From a virus, in the IMG/VR virus record IMGVR_UViG_3300035102_000435: DNA of 49,493 nucleotides; one strand, given 5' to 3'. The notes beneath the pieces were generated by a model. It was given only the letters and a program-made list of their open reading frames with translations. It had not been told where the DNA came from and searched no databases. Within the stretch, counting starts at the first letter, position 1. Each line of letters opens with the position of its first letter. Shown one piece after another: positions 34,047 to 38,927 of this stretch. A program made the position numbers and the translations under genes.

Positions 34047-34607
34047 ATGATGGCCCAGTTTAATAGTTTAACGATTACTCAAGATGGTTTAGAGCTGCAG
34101 TCAAAAGCTCAGACTGGTACTACTCTAAATTTTACTAGAGCAGCAGTTGGAGATGGAGAACTGCCGGATGGTACAAATTTAATTGATTTAAGTTCTTTGA
34201 TAAATGAAAAGGAGTCTCTTAACCTTACCGATTTATTTGTAGACGGCAGCGGTAATGCTAGAGCCAGAGCTACTGTTTCTAATCAAGGTTTAGCCACTGG
34301 TTTTTATATCAGAGAGATTGGTCTTTTCGCTAACGATCCAGACAAAGGCGAAATTTTATATTGCGTAGCAAACGCCGGGCAGTATGCTGACTTTTTGCCG
34401 GCTGGAACTGGATCAGATATTGTAGAATCTACTCTTGATCTGGTAACTATTGTAGGTAATGCAGAAAATGTTACCGCTCAAATAGACGAAAGTTTAACTT
34501 ATGTTACTGTAAAAGATATTAATGACAAATTAGATCTAGAGACTGCTGATCATCAATATAAATTAGTAGTTATTGACGGATCACTTGTTTTAGAGGAGGT
34601 ATTATAA
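34047..34607 (+). CDS. Putative tail fibre-associated protein
   Basis: 186-aa ORF between the baseplate genes and the DGR target gene. Confidence 0.35.
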   Translation: MMAQFNSLTITQDGLELQSKAQTGTTLNFTRAAVGDGELPDGTNLIDLSSLINEKESLNLTDLFVDGSGNARARATVSNQGLATGFYIREIGLFANDPDKGEILYCVANAGQYADFLPAGTGSDIVESTLDLVTIVGNAENVTAQIDESLTYVTVKDINDKLDLETADHQYKLVVIDGSLVLEEVL

Positions 34608-34925
34608 ATGAAAGGATTTCCTAAAAAATTAAAGACGAAAAAAGATTATGAAAATATCGTCGATGATTTCGGCTACACTCAAAAAGTAAAAGAAGCTTAT
34701 CAGGCATTGTTAGAAACTGATCAGCATTATGTATTTGATAAAGAACTGGCAACTGAGGATGAAAGGACTGGCCCGCTCCCTGATTATAAAGTAATGAAAG
34801 AAGATGAACAGGAAACCGAGACAGTCAGAATTGTTCAGTACAAATTAGTAGATAACCCTGACTCAAAGCTAAAAGAGTTAGGTTTTACAGAATTCGAAGT
34901 TCAAGAGGTGATTGACTTATGCTAA
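34608..34925 (+). CDS. Hypothetical protein (tail fibre region)
   Basis: 105-aa acidic ORF. Confidence 0.35.
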   Translation: MKGFPKKLKTKKDYENIVDDFGYTQKVKEAYQALLETDQHYVFDKELATEDERTGPLPDYKVMKEDEQETETVRIVQYKLVDNPDSKLKELGFTEFEVQEVIDLC

Positions 34926-35956
34926 GTGTAGTAGGAGTAGATAGTCCTGCTTTTTATAATGCAGAGGGAAATATAGAAAAGACAGCAGGAGTCCAGGGAG
35001 TAGACATCCCGGCCTTGGCATTAAGAATTAATAGGCAAAACTTAAAAGTTGAATCAGCATCAGCACTAACTGCCGCAGATAATGATGGCAGTTTTTCTAG
35101 TTTTGCGATGGGTACTGATTATTATATCTATGCCTGTCAACCAGCAAGTGGTATTGAGCCAGATTTTGTGCTTTCAGCTAACTCTACTTATCCAGATGCA
35201 ATACCTTCCGGAGTTACACCCAGCGTTGATAATACCAGGAAGATTGGTGGCTTCCATTATGGACGAGTAAGGAACAGTTCAACAGCTTCTGATGTATCAG
35301 AAAGTATTGTACCTAACTCAGTCTGGGACCTTGTTAATCGTCCAAAGTGCTCCCCTGAGGGGATGGCTAAGGTCGGCAACCTTTGGGTTGATATTTATCT
35401 AGCATCTGATGATGGTAACGGTGGTGTTGAATCAAAATATAATGCAACACCTATTACCGGTACTGAGGGCTTAAGCTGGTACAGTTTTGCAGAGAGGTTT
35501 GTGAAGGTAGATAAGCGGATGGCATCAATGTCAGAGTGGACAGCATTAGCTCAGGGCAGCCCTCAGGGTAATGATGGCGACAATGTCAATGCCTGGTCTG
35601 CTACAAGTAACAGTGGTAGAACATCTACTGGTTCTGTAACTAATGCTATCAGTAATTATAATATTGTCGATTGTGCCGGTAATGTTTGGGAATGGTTAGA
35701 TGAGGTTTCAATTAGACAGGATTCTACAACCTGGCAATGGTATGATCCAGCAACTGACTTTAATGAAACAATGGAGTCTGGATGGGACCAGCTTGGTGAT
35801 ATGTACTTACCTAATGCAGATGGTCTTTCAGCTTTCCGCGCCGGTGGCCATTGGGATGATGGTGTTCGCTGTGGTGCTCGCGCGTTGAGCCTGATCGACA
35901 AGCCTTGGTACGTGTACTCGACTTTCGGGTCTCGTGGTGTCTGTGATCCTCTGTAA
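34919..35956 (+). CDS. DGR target: tail fibre/receptor-binding protein with C-terminal C-type-lectin/FGE-like variable domain
   Basis: 345 aa; GNLWVDIY and GNVWEWLDE motifs typical of the FGE/CLec fold; the last ~38 codons form the variable repeat. Confidence 0.8.
   Translation: MLSVVGVDSPAFYNAEGNIEKTAGVQGVDIPALALRINRQNLKVESASALTAADNDGSFSSFAMGTDYYIYACQPASGIEPDFVLSANSTYPDAIPSGVTPSVDNTRKIGGFHYGRVRNSSTASDVSESIVPNSVWDLVNRPKCSPEGMAKVGNLWVDIYLASDDGNGGVESKYNATPITGTEGLSWYSFAERFVKVDKRMASMSEWTALAQGSPQGNDGDNVNAWSATSNSGRTSTGSVTNAISNYNIVDCAGNVWEWLDEVSIRQDSTTWQWYDPATDFNETMESGWDQLGDMYLPNADGLSAFRAGGHWDDGVRCGARALSLIDKPWYVYSTFGSRGVCDPL
35833..35945 (+). repeat. DGR variable repeat (VR)
   Basis: 113 bp aligned without gaps to 36359..36471; the 11 differences all fall at positions where the template has adenine. 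Confidence 0.85.
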
Positions 35957-36039
35957 TTCGTGATTTGATAATCTGTTTTTTTATTAAGGTGTGAATATTT
36001 ATCAAAAATCTAACAATACATCAAAAAGTATATGATCTA

Positions 36040-36336
36040 ATGGTTTGGTTTTTCCCGATCGTGGATAACTTTCCGAAGTATGAAAAATTTGTACTTTGCA
36101 CTCAAATAAAGAACTCTATATTAGATATTTCAAAAATCATTATTGAAGCAAATAAAACCAGAGGTAGTAAAGTGAGGTTTCTGCATCGGGTAGATGTCCG
36201 GCTTGAGCAATTAAGAATGCTAATCAGGTTTGCTCATGAAAGGCATTACTTAAACCATTCTAAATATGAAAATGTATCTAAAAAAGTTGATGAAATAGGA
36301 CGCATGCTTGGGGGTTGGATCAAGTCATGCGATTAA
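36040..36336 (+). CDS. avd: Accessory variability determinant (Avd-like four-helix-bundle protein)
   Basis: 98-aa ORF between VR and TR; the C-terminus (VDEIGRMLGGWIKS) resembles the Bordetella phage Avd C-terminus (EVGRILGSWIAR), from memory. Confidence 0.7.
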   Translation: MVWFFPIVDNFPKYEKFVLCTQIKNSILDISKIIIEANKTRGSKVRFLHRVDVRLEQLRMLIRFAHERHYLNHSKYENVSKKVDEIGRMLGGWIKSCD

Positions 36337-36358
36337 ATATTTGGGGTTAAGAGCGTTT

Positions 36359-36471
36359 TTTCCACGCCGGTGGCAATTGGAATGATGGTGTTCACTGTGG
36401 TGCTCGCGCGTTGAACCTGAACAACAAGCCTTGGAACGTGAACTCGAATATCGGGTCTCGTGGTGTCTGTG
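36359..36471 (+). repeat. DGR template repeat (TR)
   Basis: Non-coding copy of the VR; 22 adenines, many in AAC/AAT triplets in the VR-aligned frame, 11 of which differ in the VR. Confidence 0.85.
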
Positions 36472-36495
36472 CTCTTCATGCAAAAATCTTTCAGA

Positions 36496-36519
36496 CAGTA
36501 GTGGTTACGGCCACTACTG
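36496..36519 (+). other. Hairpin in the TR-RT spacer
   Basis: Perfect 9-bp inverted repeat CAGTAGTGG / CCACTACTG around a 6-nt loop, 25 nt downstream of the TR. Confidence 0.4.
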
Positions 36520-36888
36520 CAGTGTTTCTAGAAATGAGGAACAGGCTTTTAATCCCTGCTGAGATACTTTTTTAAAGTCAATCCAGCAAAAAATTTAGAT
36601 TGCTAGCCAGGCAGCAAGTATTGAAAAATAGAAAGTTGTCACAGTCAGCGACTGCCCGTTCTCATTTGAGCGGGCTTTTAATTTCCACCCATAAATAGAG
36701 AAAGTGGTGATAATATTCCAAAAAAATTTAAGAATCTATATCCAAAAATATACGATTTTGAGAACCTATACATTTCTTATGAAAATGCTAGAAAATCTAA
36801 ACGATATACTAACCAGGTCCTTAAATTTACTAATCAGTTAGAAAGCAATTTAATTAACATTCAAAATCAGCTCATCTGGAAAGAATAT

Positions 36889-37827
36889 TTGCCTGGCGAA
36901 TATCATCAGTTCTATGTCTATGAACCTAAGCAGCGGTTAGTTATGGCACTTCCTTTTGAGGATAGAGTGGTCCAGTGGGCTGTATATAGAAATTTAAATC
37001 CTATATTTGATAAAACTTTTTATGAACATAGCTGCGCCTGCCGGATTGGTAAAGGTACTCATTATGCAGCGGACCAGCTGCAGCACTGGATGAGAAAACT
37101 AGATAGAAGCCCAGGGGAAACTTATTATCTCAAAGCTGATGTTGCAAAATATTTTTACAGGATAGATCACAGAACTCTTTTCGAAATCATCAAAAGAAAG
37201 ATTAGCTGCAGAGATACTTTAGAGCTGATCTGGAAGATCATTAAAAAAGATGATGGTGAATTCGGAATACATCTCGGTGATCATTACTTTGAAAGAGATA
37301 AAATCAAAGGAATTGGAATCCCGATTGGTAACTTAACCAGTCAATTATTTGCTAATGTTTATCTCGACTTCATGGATAAATTTATAAAACATAATTTACG
37401 GGCTAAACACTACGTCAGATATATGGACGATTTTGTTATCCTGGGAAAATCAAAGAAAGAACTACATACAATCAGACAGGAGATAGAAATATTTCTTGCT
37501 GATTATTTAAAACTTGAACTTAACAACAAAACTACTGTTGATAATATCTGGAATGGAATAGATTTCTGCGGATATGTCACTTATCCACCATATAGAAAAT
37601 TGAGAAAAAGTACAAAAAGGAAACTCAAAAGACGGCTTAAATATCTTCAGAAAAAGTATTATAAAGAGGAGGTGGAGATCAATGAAATAAATGCCAGCGT
37701 TCAAAGTTATCTTGGAATATTAAAACATTGTGACAGCCATAATCTGACAATGTCGGTTATTGGCCAGTTAGAGGATGAAATACTTAATCAACTAGATTTA
37801 GAGGACGTTCGAGAACAAAGAAGTTGA
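36889..37827 (+). CDS. DGR reverse transcriptase (N-terminus likely extends upstream)
   Basis: YMDD catalytic motif (YVRYMDDFVILG) and the DGR-type IGNLTSQLFANVY motif; coordinates are from the first canonical start, but conserved N-terminal sequence continues in frame back to about 36700. Confidence 0.9.
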   Translation: MPGEYHQFYVYEPKQRLVMALPFEDRVVQWAVYRNLNPIFDKTFYEHSCACRIGKGTHYAADQLQHWMRKLDRSPGETYYLKADVAKYFYRIDHRTLFEIIKRKISCRDTLELIWKIIKKDDGEFGIHLGDHYFERDKIKGIGIPIGNLTSQLFANVYLDFMDKFIKHNLRAKHYVRYMDDFVILGKSKKELHTIRQEIEIFLADYLKLELNNKTTVDNIWNGIDFCGYVTYPPYRKLRKSTKRKLKRRLKYLQKKYYKEEVEINEINASVQSYLGILKHCDSHNLTMSVIGQLEDEILNQLDLEDVREQRS

Positions 37828-37890
37828 TGCGATATACAGATAAGCAAATACTTTTGCCTTGTAGCAGGGCTTGGTTTGAGGTGAAAACAC

Positions 37891-38352
37891 GTGAATGCAA
37901 AATGGAGACCATTTTTAGACGAAATAATTTATTACTGGAACAAATTTTTTGAGCATACAGTTATAAAAAGTTTTCTTGCGGTGGGGGGCACATTGCTGAC
38001 TATGATGTTTGGAGATATGAATGCAGCTATGCAGGGCTTTTTGATTTTGTTGGCAGCAGATTATATTACAGGAATTATAAAAGCAAGCAAAAAAGGTCAG
38101 CTATCAAGCTGGATGTCCCGTAAGGGGTGGGGGAAAATAGCGACTTATGCAATTGTAATATCGCTTGGCCACCTGGTAACTCAAATAGGGATGAAAGGAA
38201 TGAGAGATTTTGTTCTTCTCTGGGCCGGAGCAACTGAAGCTATATCTATTTTAGAAAACTGTGACGAGCTCGGTGTCGCTATTCCCGAGTTTATGCGAGA
38301 AAAACTTTTACGAACAAAAGAAAATAAATTTGGAGAGGAGATTAACCGATGA
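37891..38352 (+). CDS. Putative holin
   Basis: 153-aa membrane protein directly upstream of the amidase gene, with stop-start overlap. Confidence 0.55.
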   Translation: MNAKWRPFLDEIIYYWNKFFEHTVIKSFLAVGGTLLTMMFGDMNAAMQGFLILLAADYITGIIKASKKGQLSSWMSRKGWGKIATYAIVISLGHLVTQIGMKGMRDFVLLWAGATEAISILENCDELGVAIPEFMREKLLRTKENKFGEEINR

Positions 38353-38927
38353 AAATAACTGATGATGCAGGACATGGAGGTTCTGACCCTGGAGCTGTCG
38401 ACCCAAAAGAAGTTGAAAAAGAAGATGGTATTTATGAAGATGAAATTTACTCTGAAGAGAGCGATATAAATTTGAAAGCAGCTAAGATTTTTAAAGAAAT
38501 AGCTGAATTTAAAGGTCATGAAATTATTATGACCAGAAAAGAAGATAAGTATATCCCTTTGTATCAAAGAAGTGATTTAGCAAATAAAGAAAAAACAGAT
38601 ATATTTGTTTCTTTTCATTGCAATTCTGTGGGCTTTCCTACTGCTAAAGGAATAGAAACTCTATATTATCCAACTTCTAAAAACGGGAAAAAACTTGCTG
38701 AATGTATTCAAGATAATTTAATGAAAGTTGCGGATACACCAGATAGAGGAATAAAGTCCAGAGATAATTTACACGTCTTAGAAGAAACAGATATGCCGGC
38801 TGTTTTAATAGAACTTGGCTTTATTTCTAACCCTGCAGAGGAAAAACTCTTAAATGAAAAAGAATATTTATATCTTCTTTGTGAAGCAGTGTTAAATGGA
38901 GTTGATGATTATGCCAGAAACAGTTAA
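38349..38927 (+). CDS. N-acetylmuramoyl-L-alanine amidase (endolysin)
   Basis: 192 aa; motifs DAGHGG..DPGA, FVSFHCNS, AVLIELGFISN characteristic of Amidase_3-type cell-wall amidases. Confidence 0.8.
   Translation: MKITDDAGHGGSDPGAVDPKEVEKEDGIYEDEIYSEESDINLKAAKIFKEIAEFKGHEIIMTRKEDKYIPLYQRSDLANKEKTDIFVSFHCNSVGFPTAKGIETLYYPTSKNGKKLAECIQDNLMKVADTPDRGIKSRDNLHVLEETDMPAVLIELGFISNPAEEKLLNEKEYLYLLCEAVLNGVDDYARNS

What the first reader, a model, noticed from the sequence alone, without database searches (positions are those of the whole stretch)
36472..36714. TR-RT spacer carries a perfect 9-bp-stem hairpin
The non-coding stretch between the TR and the RT contains CAGTAGTGG-TTACGG-CCACTACTG (36496..36519). 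In the Bordetella DGR, the RNA downstream of the TR forms structure needed to prime cDNA synthesis; this hairpin is a candidate for the equivalent element. No comparable hairpin is obvious downstream of the VR.
Basis: partly seen in the sequence, partly recalled or inferred. Interest (0 to 1): 0.5.

Follow-up and report, generated by a model that had tools for sequence, protein, structure and literature searches.

The report
DGR spacer hairpin that docks Avd
The hairpin is real and conserved in related phages, and it is most likely the docking site for the helper protein Avd in the RNA that a diversity-generating retroelement copies into mutated DNA; this kind of element has already been described in the Bordetella phage, so it is a solid but ordinary find.

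Summary
The hairpin exists exactly as described: 36496-36519, 9 perfect pairs plus a closing U.G, with a UACG tetraloop. It lies in the spacer of a complete and apparently active DGR. That DGR has an Mtd-like target with VR, then avd, TR, spacer and RT, and all 11 TR/VR differences fall at TR adenines. Near-identical metagenomic copies carry different VRs.

Related DGRs keep a hairpin at the same place with entirely different stem sequences. Nine of 10 pairs show compensatory changes, and 21 of 23 relatives fold it on their own. The flanks AGA...CAGY and the YNMG-type tetraloops are conserved.

The whole spacer matches the cryo-EM architecture of the Bordetella phage DGR RNA. There is a template:primer duplex around the hairpin (predicted priming A36543, first template G36469). 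There is also a long-range "stop" duplex (36343-36354 with 36545-36556), a short stem-loop, an A-rich single strand and a long distal stem-loop.

By position and shape the hairpin corresponds to the Avd-binding stem-loop (Sp3-33, also UACG-capped), not to the primer itself. It is a new member of a known kind. Binding to Avd is inferred, not shown.

The parts
34919..35956 (+). DGR target gene (Mtd-like receptor-binding/tail protein). The VR is at 35833-35945, at its 3' end.
   Evidence: Pfam mtd_2nd PF21916, E 3e-18. VR/TR repeat found.
36001..36336 (+). avd (accessory variability determinant). The probable start is ATC 36001, since the frame is open from 35995 and the first ATG is at 36040.
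   Evidence: NCBIfam NF033474 DivGenRetAVD, 122 bits against a cutoff of 80, and Pfam bAvd, E 6e-33. Both profiles begin upstream of ATG 36040. Relatives start at ATT/ATA/TTG at the same place. PDB matches are 4dwl and 8ub7_B.
36343..36354 (+). Upstream strand (GGGGUUAAGAGC) of the long-range 'stop' duplex, lying between the avd stop codon and the TR.
   Evidence: It makes 12 pairs with 36545-36556 (MFE; RNAduplex -18.7 kcal/mol). An equivalent duplex with different sequences occurs 116-136 nt upstream in most relatives.
36359..36471 (+). Template repeat (TR). Weaker similarity to the VR continues to 36477.
   Evidence: There are 11 TR/VR differences within 36359-36471 and all are at TR adenines. 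Copies with 100% identical RT carry other VRs that differ only at TR-adenine positions.
36470..36479 (+). Template strand (UGCUCUUCAU) of the template:primer duplex. The predicted first templated base is G36469.
   Evidence: Helix 1 of model R1 has 7 of 7 pairs with compensatory changes. The extension C42:G71 and A43:U70 covaries with the U-A and C-G pairs of the L006 type, and the C.A and G.G oppositions are conserved. The register parallels BPP-1 TR117-129.
36492..36495 (+). Conserved single-stranded 5' flank, CAGA.
   Evidence: Invariant AGA/CAGA precedes the stem in relatives.
36496..36519 (+). The hairpin of the finding: 9 Watson-Crick pairs plus a closing U.G, with a UACG tetraloop at 36506-36509. 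It is the candidate Avd-binding stem-loop.
   Evidence: Covariation (10 pairs, 9 with changes on both sides, 92% of cells paired). Single-sequence folds. Motif scan (39 of 70 against 2 of 70 controls). The BPP-1 counterpart Sp3-33 has the same UACG loop.
36520..36524 (+). Conserved single-stranded 3' flank, CAGUG.
   Evidence: CAGU/CAGC follows the stem in relatives.
36534..36544 (+). Primer strand AUGAGGAACA, with predicted priming adenosine A36543, followed by G36544 (the counterpart of Bordetella Sp G57).
   Evidence: It pairs with 36470-36479. The analogy is to BPP-1 Sp47-57, UAGGUGGUCA-G. The exact priming nucleotide is inferred.
36545..36556 (+). Spacer strand (GCUUUUAAUCCC) of the 'stop' duplex.
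36557..36588 (+). Stem-loop directly after the stop strand: UGCUG/CAGCA, GA/UC and ACUUU/AAAGU.
   Evidence: Helices 3 and 4 of R1 are 97% and 95% paired, and 9 of 11 pairs show compensatory changes. It sits where BPP-1 has Sp71-78.
36589..36601 (+). Highly conserved A-rich single strand, AAAAAUUUAGAUU. It is the candidate for the A-minor adenosines plus the 'thumb ring'.
   Evidence: Nearly invariant in alignments A3 and A5 and unpaired in the folds. The role is inferred from BPP-1 Sp79-94.
36602..36649 (+). Long distal stem-loop (GCUAGC/GUCAGC and GGCAGC/GUUGUC). It is the candidate RT-binding element.
   Evidence: RNAalifold on a MAFFT alignment predicts 12 pairs, 8 with compensatory changes. 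It sits where BPP-1 has Sp95-139.
36654..36679 (+). Terminator-like hairpin, GCCCGUUC/GAGCGGGC, followed by UUUU.
   Evidence: Top hit of the terminator scan. It is kept with compensatory changes in most close relatives but absent in L010, L011 and L017.
36715..37827 (+). DGR reverse transcriptase, with probable ATT start.
   Evidence: Pfam RVT_1. The best solved-structure match is Bordetella bRT, 8ub7_A, E 2e-53. ATT/ATC occupies the same position in relatives, after a GGTGAT/GGAG Shine-Dalgarno sequence.

Best explanation
The hairpin is a structural element of the DGR RNA, the transcript spanning the avd 3' flank, the TR and the spacer. It is the counterpart of the Avd-binding stem-loop of the Bordetella phage BPP-1 DGR.

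Proposed mechanism, by analogy. The sense transcript folds so that the 3' end of the TR (36470-36479) pairs with a spacer segment (36534-36543). The hairpin projects from the loop enclosed by this duplex. Together with its conserved single-stranded flanks (CAGA and CAGUG), it sits on the narrow end of the pentameric Avd barrel and anchors the RNA to the RT-Avd complex. This positions the template:primer duplex in the RT active site, so that the 2'-OH of A36543 primes cDNA synthesis starting opposite G36469. Synthesis then runs through the TR with misincorporation at adenines. It stops at the long-range duplex 36343-36354 / 36545-36556.

Shown here: the hairpin, its conservation and covariation, the surrounding helices, and homology of both proteins to bRT and Avd.

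Inferred: Avd binding, the identity of the priming nucleotide, and the stop function.
For: 1. The DGR is complete and active. The Avd equivalog scores 122 bits. The RT is closest to bRT of the cryo-EM complexes 8ub7-8ube. All 11 TR/VR differences are at TR adenines. Copies with 100% identical RT carry different VRs that vary only at TR adenines.

2. The hairpin is conserved with covariation. Model R1 finds the region directly upstream of the RT in 30 loci. In the hairpin helix, 9 of 10 pairs have changes on both sides and 92% of cells are paired. For the whole structure, 92.4% of cells pair, against 65% in shuffles and 35-51% when partners are slid.

3. The result does not depend on the alignment. 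Twenty-one of 23 distinct relatives fold the hairpin as their own MFE structure. An AGA-hairpin-CAGY motif occurs in 39 of 70 distinct RT-upstream regions, against 2 of 70 control regions.

4. Many G.U pairs make the structure specific to the sense RNA strand (UG in 8, 7 and 19 rows at three pairs).

5. The topology matches BPP-1. The hairpin lies between the TR strand and the primer strand of a covarying duplex. A covarying long-range duplex to the region just upstream of the TR follows, then a stem-loop, an A-rich single strand and a long stem-loop. This is the same order as Sp3-33, Sp47-56, Sp59-70, Sp71-78, Sp79-94 and Sp95-139.

6. BPP-1 Sp3-33 read from the genome is an 11-bp stem capped by the same UACG tetraloop.

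7. Handa et al. report such stem-loops just after the TR in 207 of 278 Avd-containing DGRs. They are commonly 9 bp with tetraloops.
Against: There is no direct evidence of Avd binding or of any requirement for cDNA synthesis in this element.

The window's stem is perfect. In BPP-1 the key Avd contacts use bases flipped out of the stem and its 5' flank (U3, G4, U7). Some relatives do have a bulged base (L009, L023, L034).

The spacing between the TR strand and the hairpin is 16 nt here and about 9 nt in BPP-1.

The R1 hit on BPP-1 is not significant (E 0.12) and its internal alignment does not follow the cryo-EM structure. The link to BPP-1 therefore rests on architecture and on protein homology, not on RNA sequence homology.

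Alignment A5 was fitted to the model, although mitigate this.

RNAduplex prefers an alternative register for the last pairs of the primer duplex. The priming nucleotide could therefore be A36540, A36541 or A36543.
Confidence: 0.8

Rival explanations
1. The hairpin is an intrinsic transcription terminator or attenuator that ends the avd-TR transcript before the RT gene.
For: The simple terminator scan lists it, with 10 pairs and the tail CAGTGTTTCT.
Against: The tail is not a U tract. In relatives the sequence after the stem is CAGUGUUCAAAAAG, CCAGUGCCAGCAAC or CAGUACUUAGGGG, with no U run. The conserved elements downstream (primer strand, stop strand and so on) must be on the same RNA to pair with the TR end and the TR-upstream strand. 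A much better terminator candidate lies at 36654-36679.
Confidence: 0.03
2. The hairpin is itself the priming structure: cDNA synthesis starts from a nucleotide in or at the base of this stem-loop.
For: The hairpin is the most prominent structure near the TR 3' end.
Against: The stem sequence is free to vary and only pairing is kept. A separate segment, 36534-36543, is complementary to the TR 3' end with covariation. It ends in A-G opposite U-G, exactly as Sp A56-G57 does opposite TR U118-G117 in BPP-1.
Confidence: 0.05
3. The hairpin is a generic RNA stability, processing or folding element (a nuclease barrier or RNase III site) with no specific protein partner.
For: Stable UNCG/YNMG-capped hairpins often serve as folding nuclei or nuclease barriers (general knowledge). 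No binding data exist for this element.
Against: The single-stranded flanks AGA and CAGY and the loop class are sequence-conserved across RTs only about 50% identical. This points to specific recognition. The fixed position inside the primer-duplex loop matches the Avd site of the solved RNP.
Confidence: 0.08
4. It is a DNA-level inverted repeat (a cruciform or recombination signal), like the stem-loop that follows the VR in Bordetella.
For: An inverted repeat next to a DGR repeat is known at the VR side in BPP-1.
Against: It follows the TR, not the VR, and no hairpin follows the VR here. Frequent G.U pairs would be A.C mismatches on the other strand and in a cruciform.
Confidence: 0.02
5. It is a chance palindrome with no function.
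For: Perfect 9-bp hairpins of any composition are about as common in the window as in shuffles, 5 against 3.5.
Against: The covariation and the alignment-independent recurrence argue strongly against chance. It is the only such hairpin with at least 4 G-C pairs, where 0.002 is expected per 244 nt.
Confidence: 0.01

Closest known systems
Avd-binding stem-loop (Sp3-33) of the Bordetella phage BPP-1 DGR RNA (Handa et al., bioRxiv 10.1101/2023.10.23.563531; PDB 8ub7-8ube)
   Same: It lies directly downstream of the TR, inside the loop closed by the TR:spacer template:primer duplex. The stem is of similar length (10 bp against 11 bp). It is capped by the identical UACG (UNCG-type) tetraloop. Homologous Avd and RT are encoded alongside. 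The order of the remaining spacer elements is the same.
   Different: There is no detectable RNA sequence homology. The window's stem has no bulged bases, and the tetraloop is closed by U.G rather than C-G. This family has conserved flanks, CAGA and CAGUG, that BPP-1 lacks. The hairpin lies 16 nt rather than about 9 nt from the TR strand. The upstream strand of the stop duplex lies in the avd-TR intergenic gap rather than inside the avd coding end. The stem-loop after the stop strand is 32 nt rather than 8 nt. An extra terminator-like hairpin precedes the RT gene.
Predicted Avd-binding stem-loops in 207 of 278 Avd-containing DGRs, including Bacillota (same paper, section 'Conservation of RNA elements')
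   Same: The typical form is a 9-bp stem with a tetraloop just after the TR, accompanied by a stop duplex between sequences upstream and downstream of the TR. The window fits that description exactly.
   Different: Whether this Halanaerobium phage lineage was in their set was not checked. The paper reports UNCG loops mainly for Pseudomonadota and GNRA for Cyanobacteriota. This Bacillota-associated family uses UACG, CAAG and CACG.
Retron msr/msd RNA (2'-OH priming from a branch nucleotide)
   Same: Both are cis-primed reverse transcription from an internal 2'-OH of a structured non-coding RNA next to the RT gene. This is established knowledge and is cited as an analogy.
   Different: Retrons prime from a conserved G flanked by inverted repeats a1/a2, have no Avd and no TR/VR pair, and do not mutagenise adenines. 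No Rfam family, retron or otherwise, matched this region.

Membership tests
Diversity-generating retroelement (DGR) | A TR/VR repeat pair whose differences fall at TR adenines | tested here: met
   All 11 differences within 36359-36471 are at TR adenines. Population variants of the VR differ only at TR-adenine positions.
Diversity-generating retroelement (DGR) | A DGR-clade reverse transcriptase next to the TR | tested here: met
   The best solved homologue is Bordetella bRT, 8ub7_A, E 2e-53, ahead of the group II intron RTs. The IGNLTSQ motif is visible in the translation; its status as a DGR signature is from established knowledge.
Diversity-generating retroelement (DGR) | The accessory protein Avd | tested here: met
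   NF033474 equivalog, 122 bits against a cutoff of 80. Pfam bAvd, E 6e-33.
Avd-binding stem-loop of DGR RNA | Located just 3' of the TR, between the TR strand and the spacer strand of the template:primer duplex | tested here: met
   The hairpin at 36496-36519 lies between 36470-36479 and 36534-36543, and that duplex covaries.
Avd-binding stem-loop of DGR RNA | A stem of about 9-11 bp capped by a stable tetraloop (UNCG or GNRA) | tested here: met
   9 Watson-Crick pairs plus U.G, with a UACG loop. Relatives carry UACG, CAAG and CACG.
Avd-binding stem-loop of DGR RNA | Pairing maintained by selection (covariation in related DGRs) | tested here: met
   9 of 10 pairs have compensatory changes. 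21 of 23 single-sequence folds show the hairpin.
Avd-binding stem-loop of DGR RNA | Flipped-out or bulged bases that insert between Avd protomers | tested here: inconclusive
   The window's stem is perfect. L009, L023 and L034 have one bulged base. The conserved unpaired flanks might play this role, which is inference.
Avd-binding stem-loop of DGR RNA | Physical contact with the Avd pentamer and a requirement for cis-primed reverse transcription | not testable with these tools
   This needs EMSA or footprinting, cDNA synthesis assays or cryo-EM. It has been shown only for BPP-1.
Avd-binding stem-loop of DGR RNA | Accompanied by a 'cPRT stop' duplex between sequences upstream and downstream of the TR | tested here: met
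   36343-36354 pairs with 36545-36556 (12 bp). Equivalent duplexes with different sequences lie 116-136 nt upstream in most relatives.
Intrinsic terminator | A G+C-rich stem followed directly by a U tract, conserved in relatives | tested here: not met
   The tail CAGUGUUUCU is not a U tract, and relatives lack any U run.
Any Rfam family | A covariance-model match | tested here: not met
   There is no relevant hit in 34500-38500 even at E up to 10.

The most novel reading that the evidence does not exclude
In this Halanaerobium-associated (Bacillota) phage DGR family, Avd may recognise its RNA through the sequence-conserved single-stranded flanks (CAGA...CAGUG) and a U.G-closed YNMG tetraloop, rather than through bases bulged from the stem as in Bordetella.

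In addition, the spacer ends in an intrinsic terminator (36654-36679), and both avd and the RT start at AUC/AUU codons. The DGR RNA would then be made as a discrete terminated transcript, with the RT produced only at a trickle by read-through. That would be a built-in throttle on mutagenesis that has not been described for DGRs.
Probability: 0.2. Interest if true: 0.45.

Novelty: new member of a known kind. Interest (0 to 1): 0.25.

Why it matters
It shows that the RNA architecture solved for the Bordetella phage DGR is recognisable element by element in a distant, AT-rich phage lineage linked to Halanaerobium, whose RT has bRT as its closest solved homologue. Those elements are the Avd-docking hairpin, the template:primer duplex, the stop duplex, the single-stranded A-rich tract and the distal stem-loop.

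This gives concrete, testable coordinates for the priming adenosine (A36543), the first templated base (G36469) and the stop site.

It also yields a covarying alignment that could seed an RNA family for DGR spacers, since Rfam has none that matches here. Such a model would help annotate TR boundaries and the orientation of DGRs in metagenomes.

It does not change current understanding of how DGRs work.

Tried and rejected
1. An Rfam scan of 34500-38500 at E up to 10 gave only a spurious lncRNA fragment.

2. A nucleotide search of GenBank phages found only a short 70% match inside the RT gene of Bacillus phage BalMu-1. There is no annotated relative of the spacer.

3. A plain MAFFT alignment of the whole avd-RT interval misaligned the hairpin of the L006-type relatives. 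I therefore used a covariance model and checked it with alignment-free folds.

4. Model R1 against BPP-1 gave a top hit in the right place, but at E 0.12 and with an internal alignment that contradicts the cryo-EM structure. I do not count it as RNA homology.

5. An alternative hairpin, 36523-36529 with 36537-36543, would sequester the primer strand (centroid). It is possible in window-type relatives, but the complementary bases are invariant there, and the pairing is absent in L006-type spacers. It is not supported.

6. The terminator reading of the hairpin is rejected.

7. A search for a VR-side hairpin found none.

8. RNAduplex on the distant 'GGCUUC' type relatives gave inconsistent registers for the primer duplex. 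The priming position is therefore argued only for the window type, the L006 type and BPP-1.

Full report
OBSERVATION

The sequence CAGTAGTGG-TTACGG-CCACTACTG is present at 36496-36519, exactly as reported. As RNA it forms nine Watson-Crick pairs plus a closing U36505.G36510 wobble around a UACG tetraloop (36506-36509). This hairpin appears in the MFE and centroid structures of both the 381-nt and the 244-nt contexts.

Counting any perfect 9-bp hairpin, the window has 5 against 3.5 expected from shuffles, so the bare count is unremarkable. However, this is the only one with at least four G-C pairs. The expectation for that is 0.39 per window and 0.002 per 244 nt. The spacer as a whole folds better than every one of 200 shuffles (z = -3.49).

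CONTEXT

The hairpin sits in a complete DGR.
- The target gene 34919-35956 has an Mtd second domain and ends in the VR (35833-35945).
- The next gene is Avd: NCBIfam equivalog NF033474, 122 bits against a cutoff of 80, and Pfam bAvd.
- The TR is 36359-36471. All 11 TR/VR differences are at TR adenines.
- The downstream gene is a reverse transcriptase whose best solved homologue is Bordetella bRT in the cryo-EM complexes 8ub7-8ube (E 2e-53). Avd matches 4dwl and 8ub7_B.

The element is active in nature. Metagenomic and viral contigs with 100% identical RT and identical TR carry three other VR versions, which differ from the TR only at TR-adenine positions. The closest genomic relatives are prophage regions of Halanaerobium species.

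CONSERVATION AND COVARIATION

I collected relatives of the RT from viral, metagenome and genome contigs. By eye, close relatives keep a hairpin at the same place with changed stems:
- CAGUAGUGG/CCACUGCUG
- UAAUAAUAG/CUAUUGUUA
- UAGCAACC/GGUUGUUA
- AUGACC/GGUCAU

These are seen.

I built a covariance model from nine window-type spacers, with three helices specified. It found 31 matches in 83 loci. Thirty of them are on the RT strand, in all but two cases ending within about 100 nt upstream of the RT match, and they include DGRs whose RT is only about 50% identical.

On that alignment the hairpin helix has 10 pairs, 9 of them with changes on both sides, and 92% of cells are paired. The whole structure is 92.4% paired, against 65% in shuffles (0 of 500 reach it) and 35-51% when partners are slid by 1-3 columns.

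That alignment is fitted to the model, so I ran two alignment-free checks.
- Twenty-one of 23 distinct relatives give the hairpin as their own MFE structure at the corresponding place.
- A scan for AGA, then a hairpin of at least 7 bp, then CAGY finds it in 39 of 70 distinct RT-upstream regions, against 2 of 70 control regions inside the RT gene. The loops are CAAG (14), UACG (9), CACG (6) and a few others.

These loops fit the YNMG class, which generalises UNCG (my own knowledge of the tetraloop literature). Most are closed by U.G. The many G.U pairs mean the structure exists only in the sense-strand RNA.

WHAT IS KNOWN

Handa et al. (bioRxiv 10.1101/2023.10.23.563531) solved the Bordetella phage bRT-Avd:RNA complex. 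From memory, it was later published in Nature as 'RNA control of reverse transcription in a diversity-generating retroelement'. Their elements, in order along the RNA, are:
- Sp47-56, which pairs with TR117-129 to form the template:primer duplex. A56 is the priming nucleotide and TR G117 is the first templated base.
- Sp59-70, which pairs with the end of avd to form the 'cPRT stop'.
- A short stem-loop, Sp71-78, followed by A-minor adenosines.
- The single-stranded 'thumb ring', Sp82-94.
- The bRT-binding stem-loop, Sp95-139.

Deleting the Avd-binding segment, or mutating its flipped-out U7, strongly reduces cis-primed reverse transcription. They also report putative Avd-binding stem-loops just after the TR in 207 of 278 Avd-containing DGRs. 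These commonly have 9 bp and a tetraloop, and come with stop duplexes.

MAPPING THE WINDOW ONTO THAT ARCHITECTURE

(a) Template:primer duplex. 36470-36479 (UGCUCUUCAU) pairs with 36534-36543 (AUGAGGAACA). The seven inner pairs all covary. The two outer pairs, G71:C42 and U70:A43, are replaced by U:A and C:G in the L006/L011/L100 types. The C.A opposition and the following G.G opposition are conserved.

Read from the BPP-1 genome, the Bordetella TR end is GUCU-G117-UGCCCAUCACC and its primer strand is UAGGUGGUCA-G57. The window has GUCU-G36469-UGCUCUUCAU and AUGAGGAACA-G36544. A mismatch opposite the same C occurs at the third position from the end in both. I therefore predict priming from A36543 and a first templated base of G36469. 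RNAduplex prefers a register with G71 and C72 bulged, so this is an inference.

(b) The hairpin. It lies inside the loop closed by this duplex, 16 nt after the TR strand and 14 nt before the primer strand. That is the position of Sp3-33. The BPP-1 stem-loop read from the genome is capped by the same UACG.

(c) Stop duplex. 36343-36354 (GGGGUUAAGAGC, between the avd stop codon and the TR) pairs with 36545-36556. Most relatives have an equivalent duplex 116-136 nt upstream of the TR 3' end, with quite different sequences. Examples are GGGGAGAAAGCC/GGCUUUCUUCCC, GGGAGAAUGCC/GGCAUUCUUCC and GGAGGCGGGU/AUCCGCUUCC.

(d) Stem-loop 36557-36588. It is 95-97% paired and 9 of 11 pairs covary.

(e) Single strand 36589-36601. 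This is a nearly invariant A-rich tract, AAAAAUUUAGAUU.

(f) Long stem-loop 36602-36649. RNAalifold predicts it on a MAFFT alignment, and 8 of 12 pairs are compensatory.

The order and topology are those of the Bordetella RNA.

MECHANISM

[quoted passage not shown] This helps place the template:primer duplex in the RT active site for 2'-OH priming.

What is shown here is the structure, its selection, the surrounding helices and the homology of the proteins. Avd contact and a requirement for cDNA synthesis are inferred from the Bordetella work.

RIVAL EXPLANATIONS

- A terminator is unlikely. There is no conserved U tract, and essential pairing partners lie downstream on the same RNA.
- The hairpin as the primer itself is unlikely, because a separate covarying segment provides the primer strand.
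- A DNA cruciform is unlikely, because of the G.U pairs and the TR-side location.
- A generic stabilising hairpin cannot be fully excluded. It does not, however, explain the conserved flanks and loop class.

DIFFERENCES FROM BORDETELLA

- There is no RNA sequence homology. The R1 hit on BPP-1 has E 0.12 and a structurally wrong alignment.
- The stem is perfect, without bulged bases.
- The loop is closed by U.G.
- The family has its own conserved CAGA/CAGUG flanks.
- The upstream stop strand is intergenic rather than inside avd.
- The post-stop stem-loop is larger.
- An extra terminator-like hairpin (36654-36679) precedes the RT gene. It is absent from L010, L011 and L017.

VERDICT

It is a new member of a known kind of element, so interest is modest. 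The useful by-products are precise predictions for the priming and stop sites, and a covarying alignment for a family that Rfam lacks.

Noticed in passing
window 36682-36735 (RT start) and 35995-36042 (avd start): Neither DGR gene has a canonical start codon where its conserved protein begins. The RT frame has no ATG/GTG/TTG before 36889, although the conserved N-terminus starts at about 36715 (ATT, after the Shine-Dalgarno sequence GGTGAT). The Avd profile starts upstream of ATG 36040, with a probable ATC start at 36001 after AAGGTG. Relatives have ATT, ATC or ATA (and TTG in the L034 group) at the same positions. This suggests deliberately weak translation initiation.
   Followed up: partly
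window 36654-36679: A terminator-like hairpin, GCCCGUUC/GAGCGGGC plus UUUU, lies inside the spacer between the distal stem-loop and the RT start. It is kept with compensatory changes in most close relatives but is missing in L010, L011 and L017, where the RT start follows the stem-loop directly. It could define the 3' end of the DGR RNA or attenuate RT expression.
   Followed up: partly
VR 35833-35945 against L001, L002/L014, L013, L004: Contigs with identical or nearly identical RT and TR carry different VR sequences, and every difference is at a TR-adenine position. This is direct population evidence that the DGR is currently diversifying its Mtd-like target.
   Followed up: yes
window 35945-36040: There is no stable hairpin or cruciform downstream of the VR (DNA fold z = +0.26), unlike the inverted repeat after the IMH in Bordetella phage. 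VR and TR similarity continues imperfectly to 35951/36477, which is an IMH/IMH*-like arrangement.
   Followed up: partly
window 36523-36543: An alternative hairpin, UGUUUCU/AGGAACA, would sequester the predicted primer strand. It appears in the centroid fold. It is possible in window-type relatives, but shows no covariation and is absent in L006-type spacers.
   Followed up: partly
L006-L008, L011, L057 (spacer 5' part): In these relatives a short outer helix (GGC...GCC, GGU...ACC) encloses the Avd-type hairpin and its AGAAGU/CCAGU flanks. It covaries between L006 and L008. The window type has no equivalent.
   Followed up: no
window 37891-38927: Directly after the RT gene come a small membrane protein that looks like a holin and an N-acetylmuramoyl-L-alanine amidase-like ORF, both judged by eye from the translations. 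The DGR therefore sits between the tail-fibre module and the lysis cassette of a phage or prophage. The nearest genomic relatives are in Halanaerobium saccharolyticum and H. salsuginis.
   Followed up: no
window 36704-36729: GTG codons at 36704 and 36707 open a different frame, which runs into the A7 run at 36720-36726 just before the conserved RT sequence. The frame offset between these GTGs and the RT frame differs in L009, so a conserved programmed frameshift is unlikely.
   Followed up: partly
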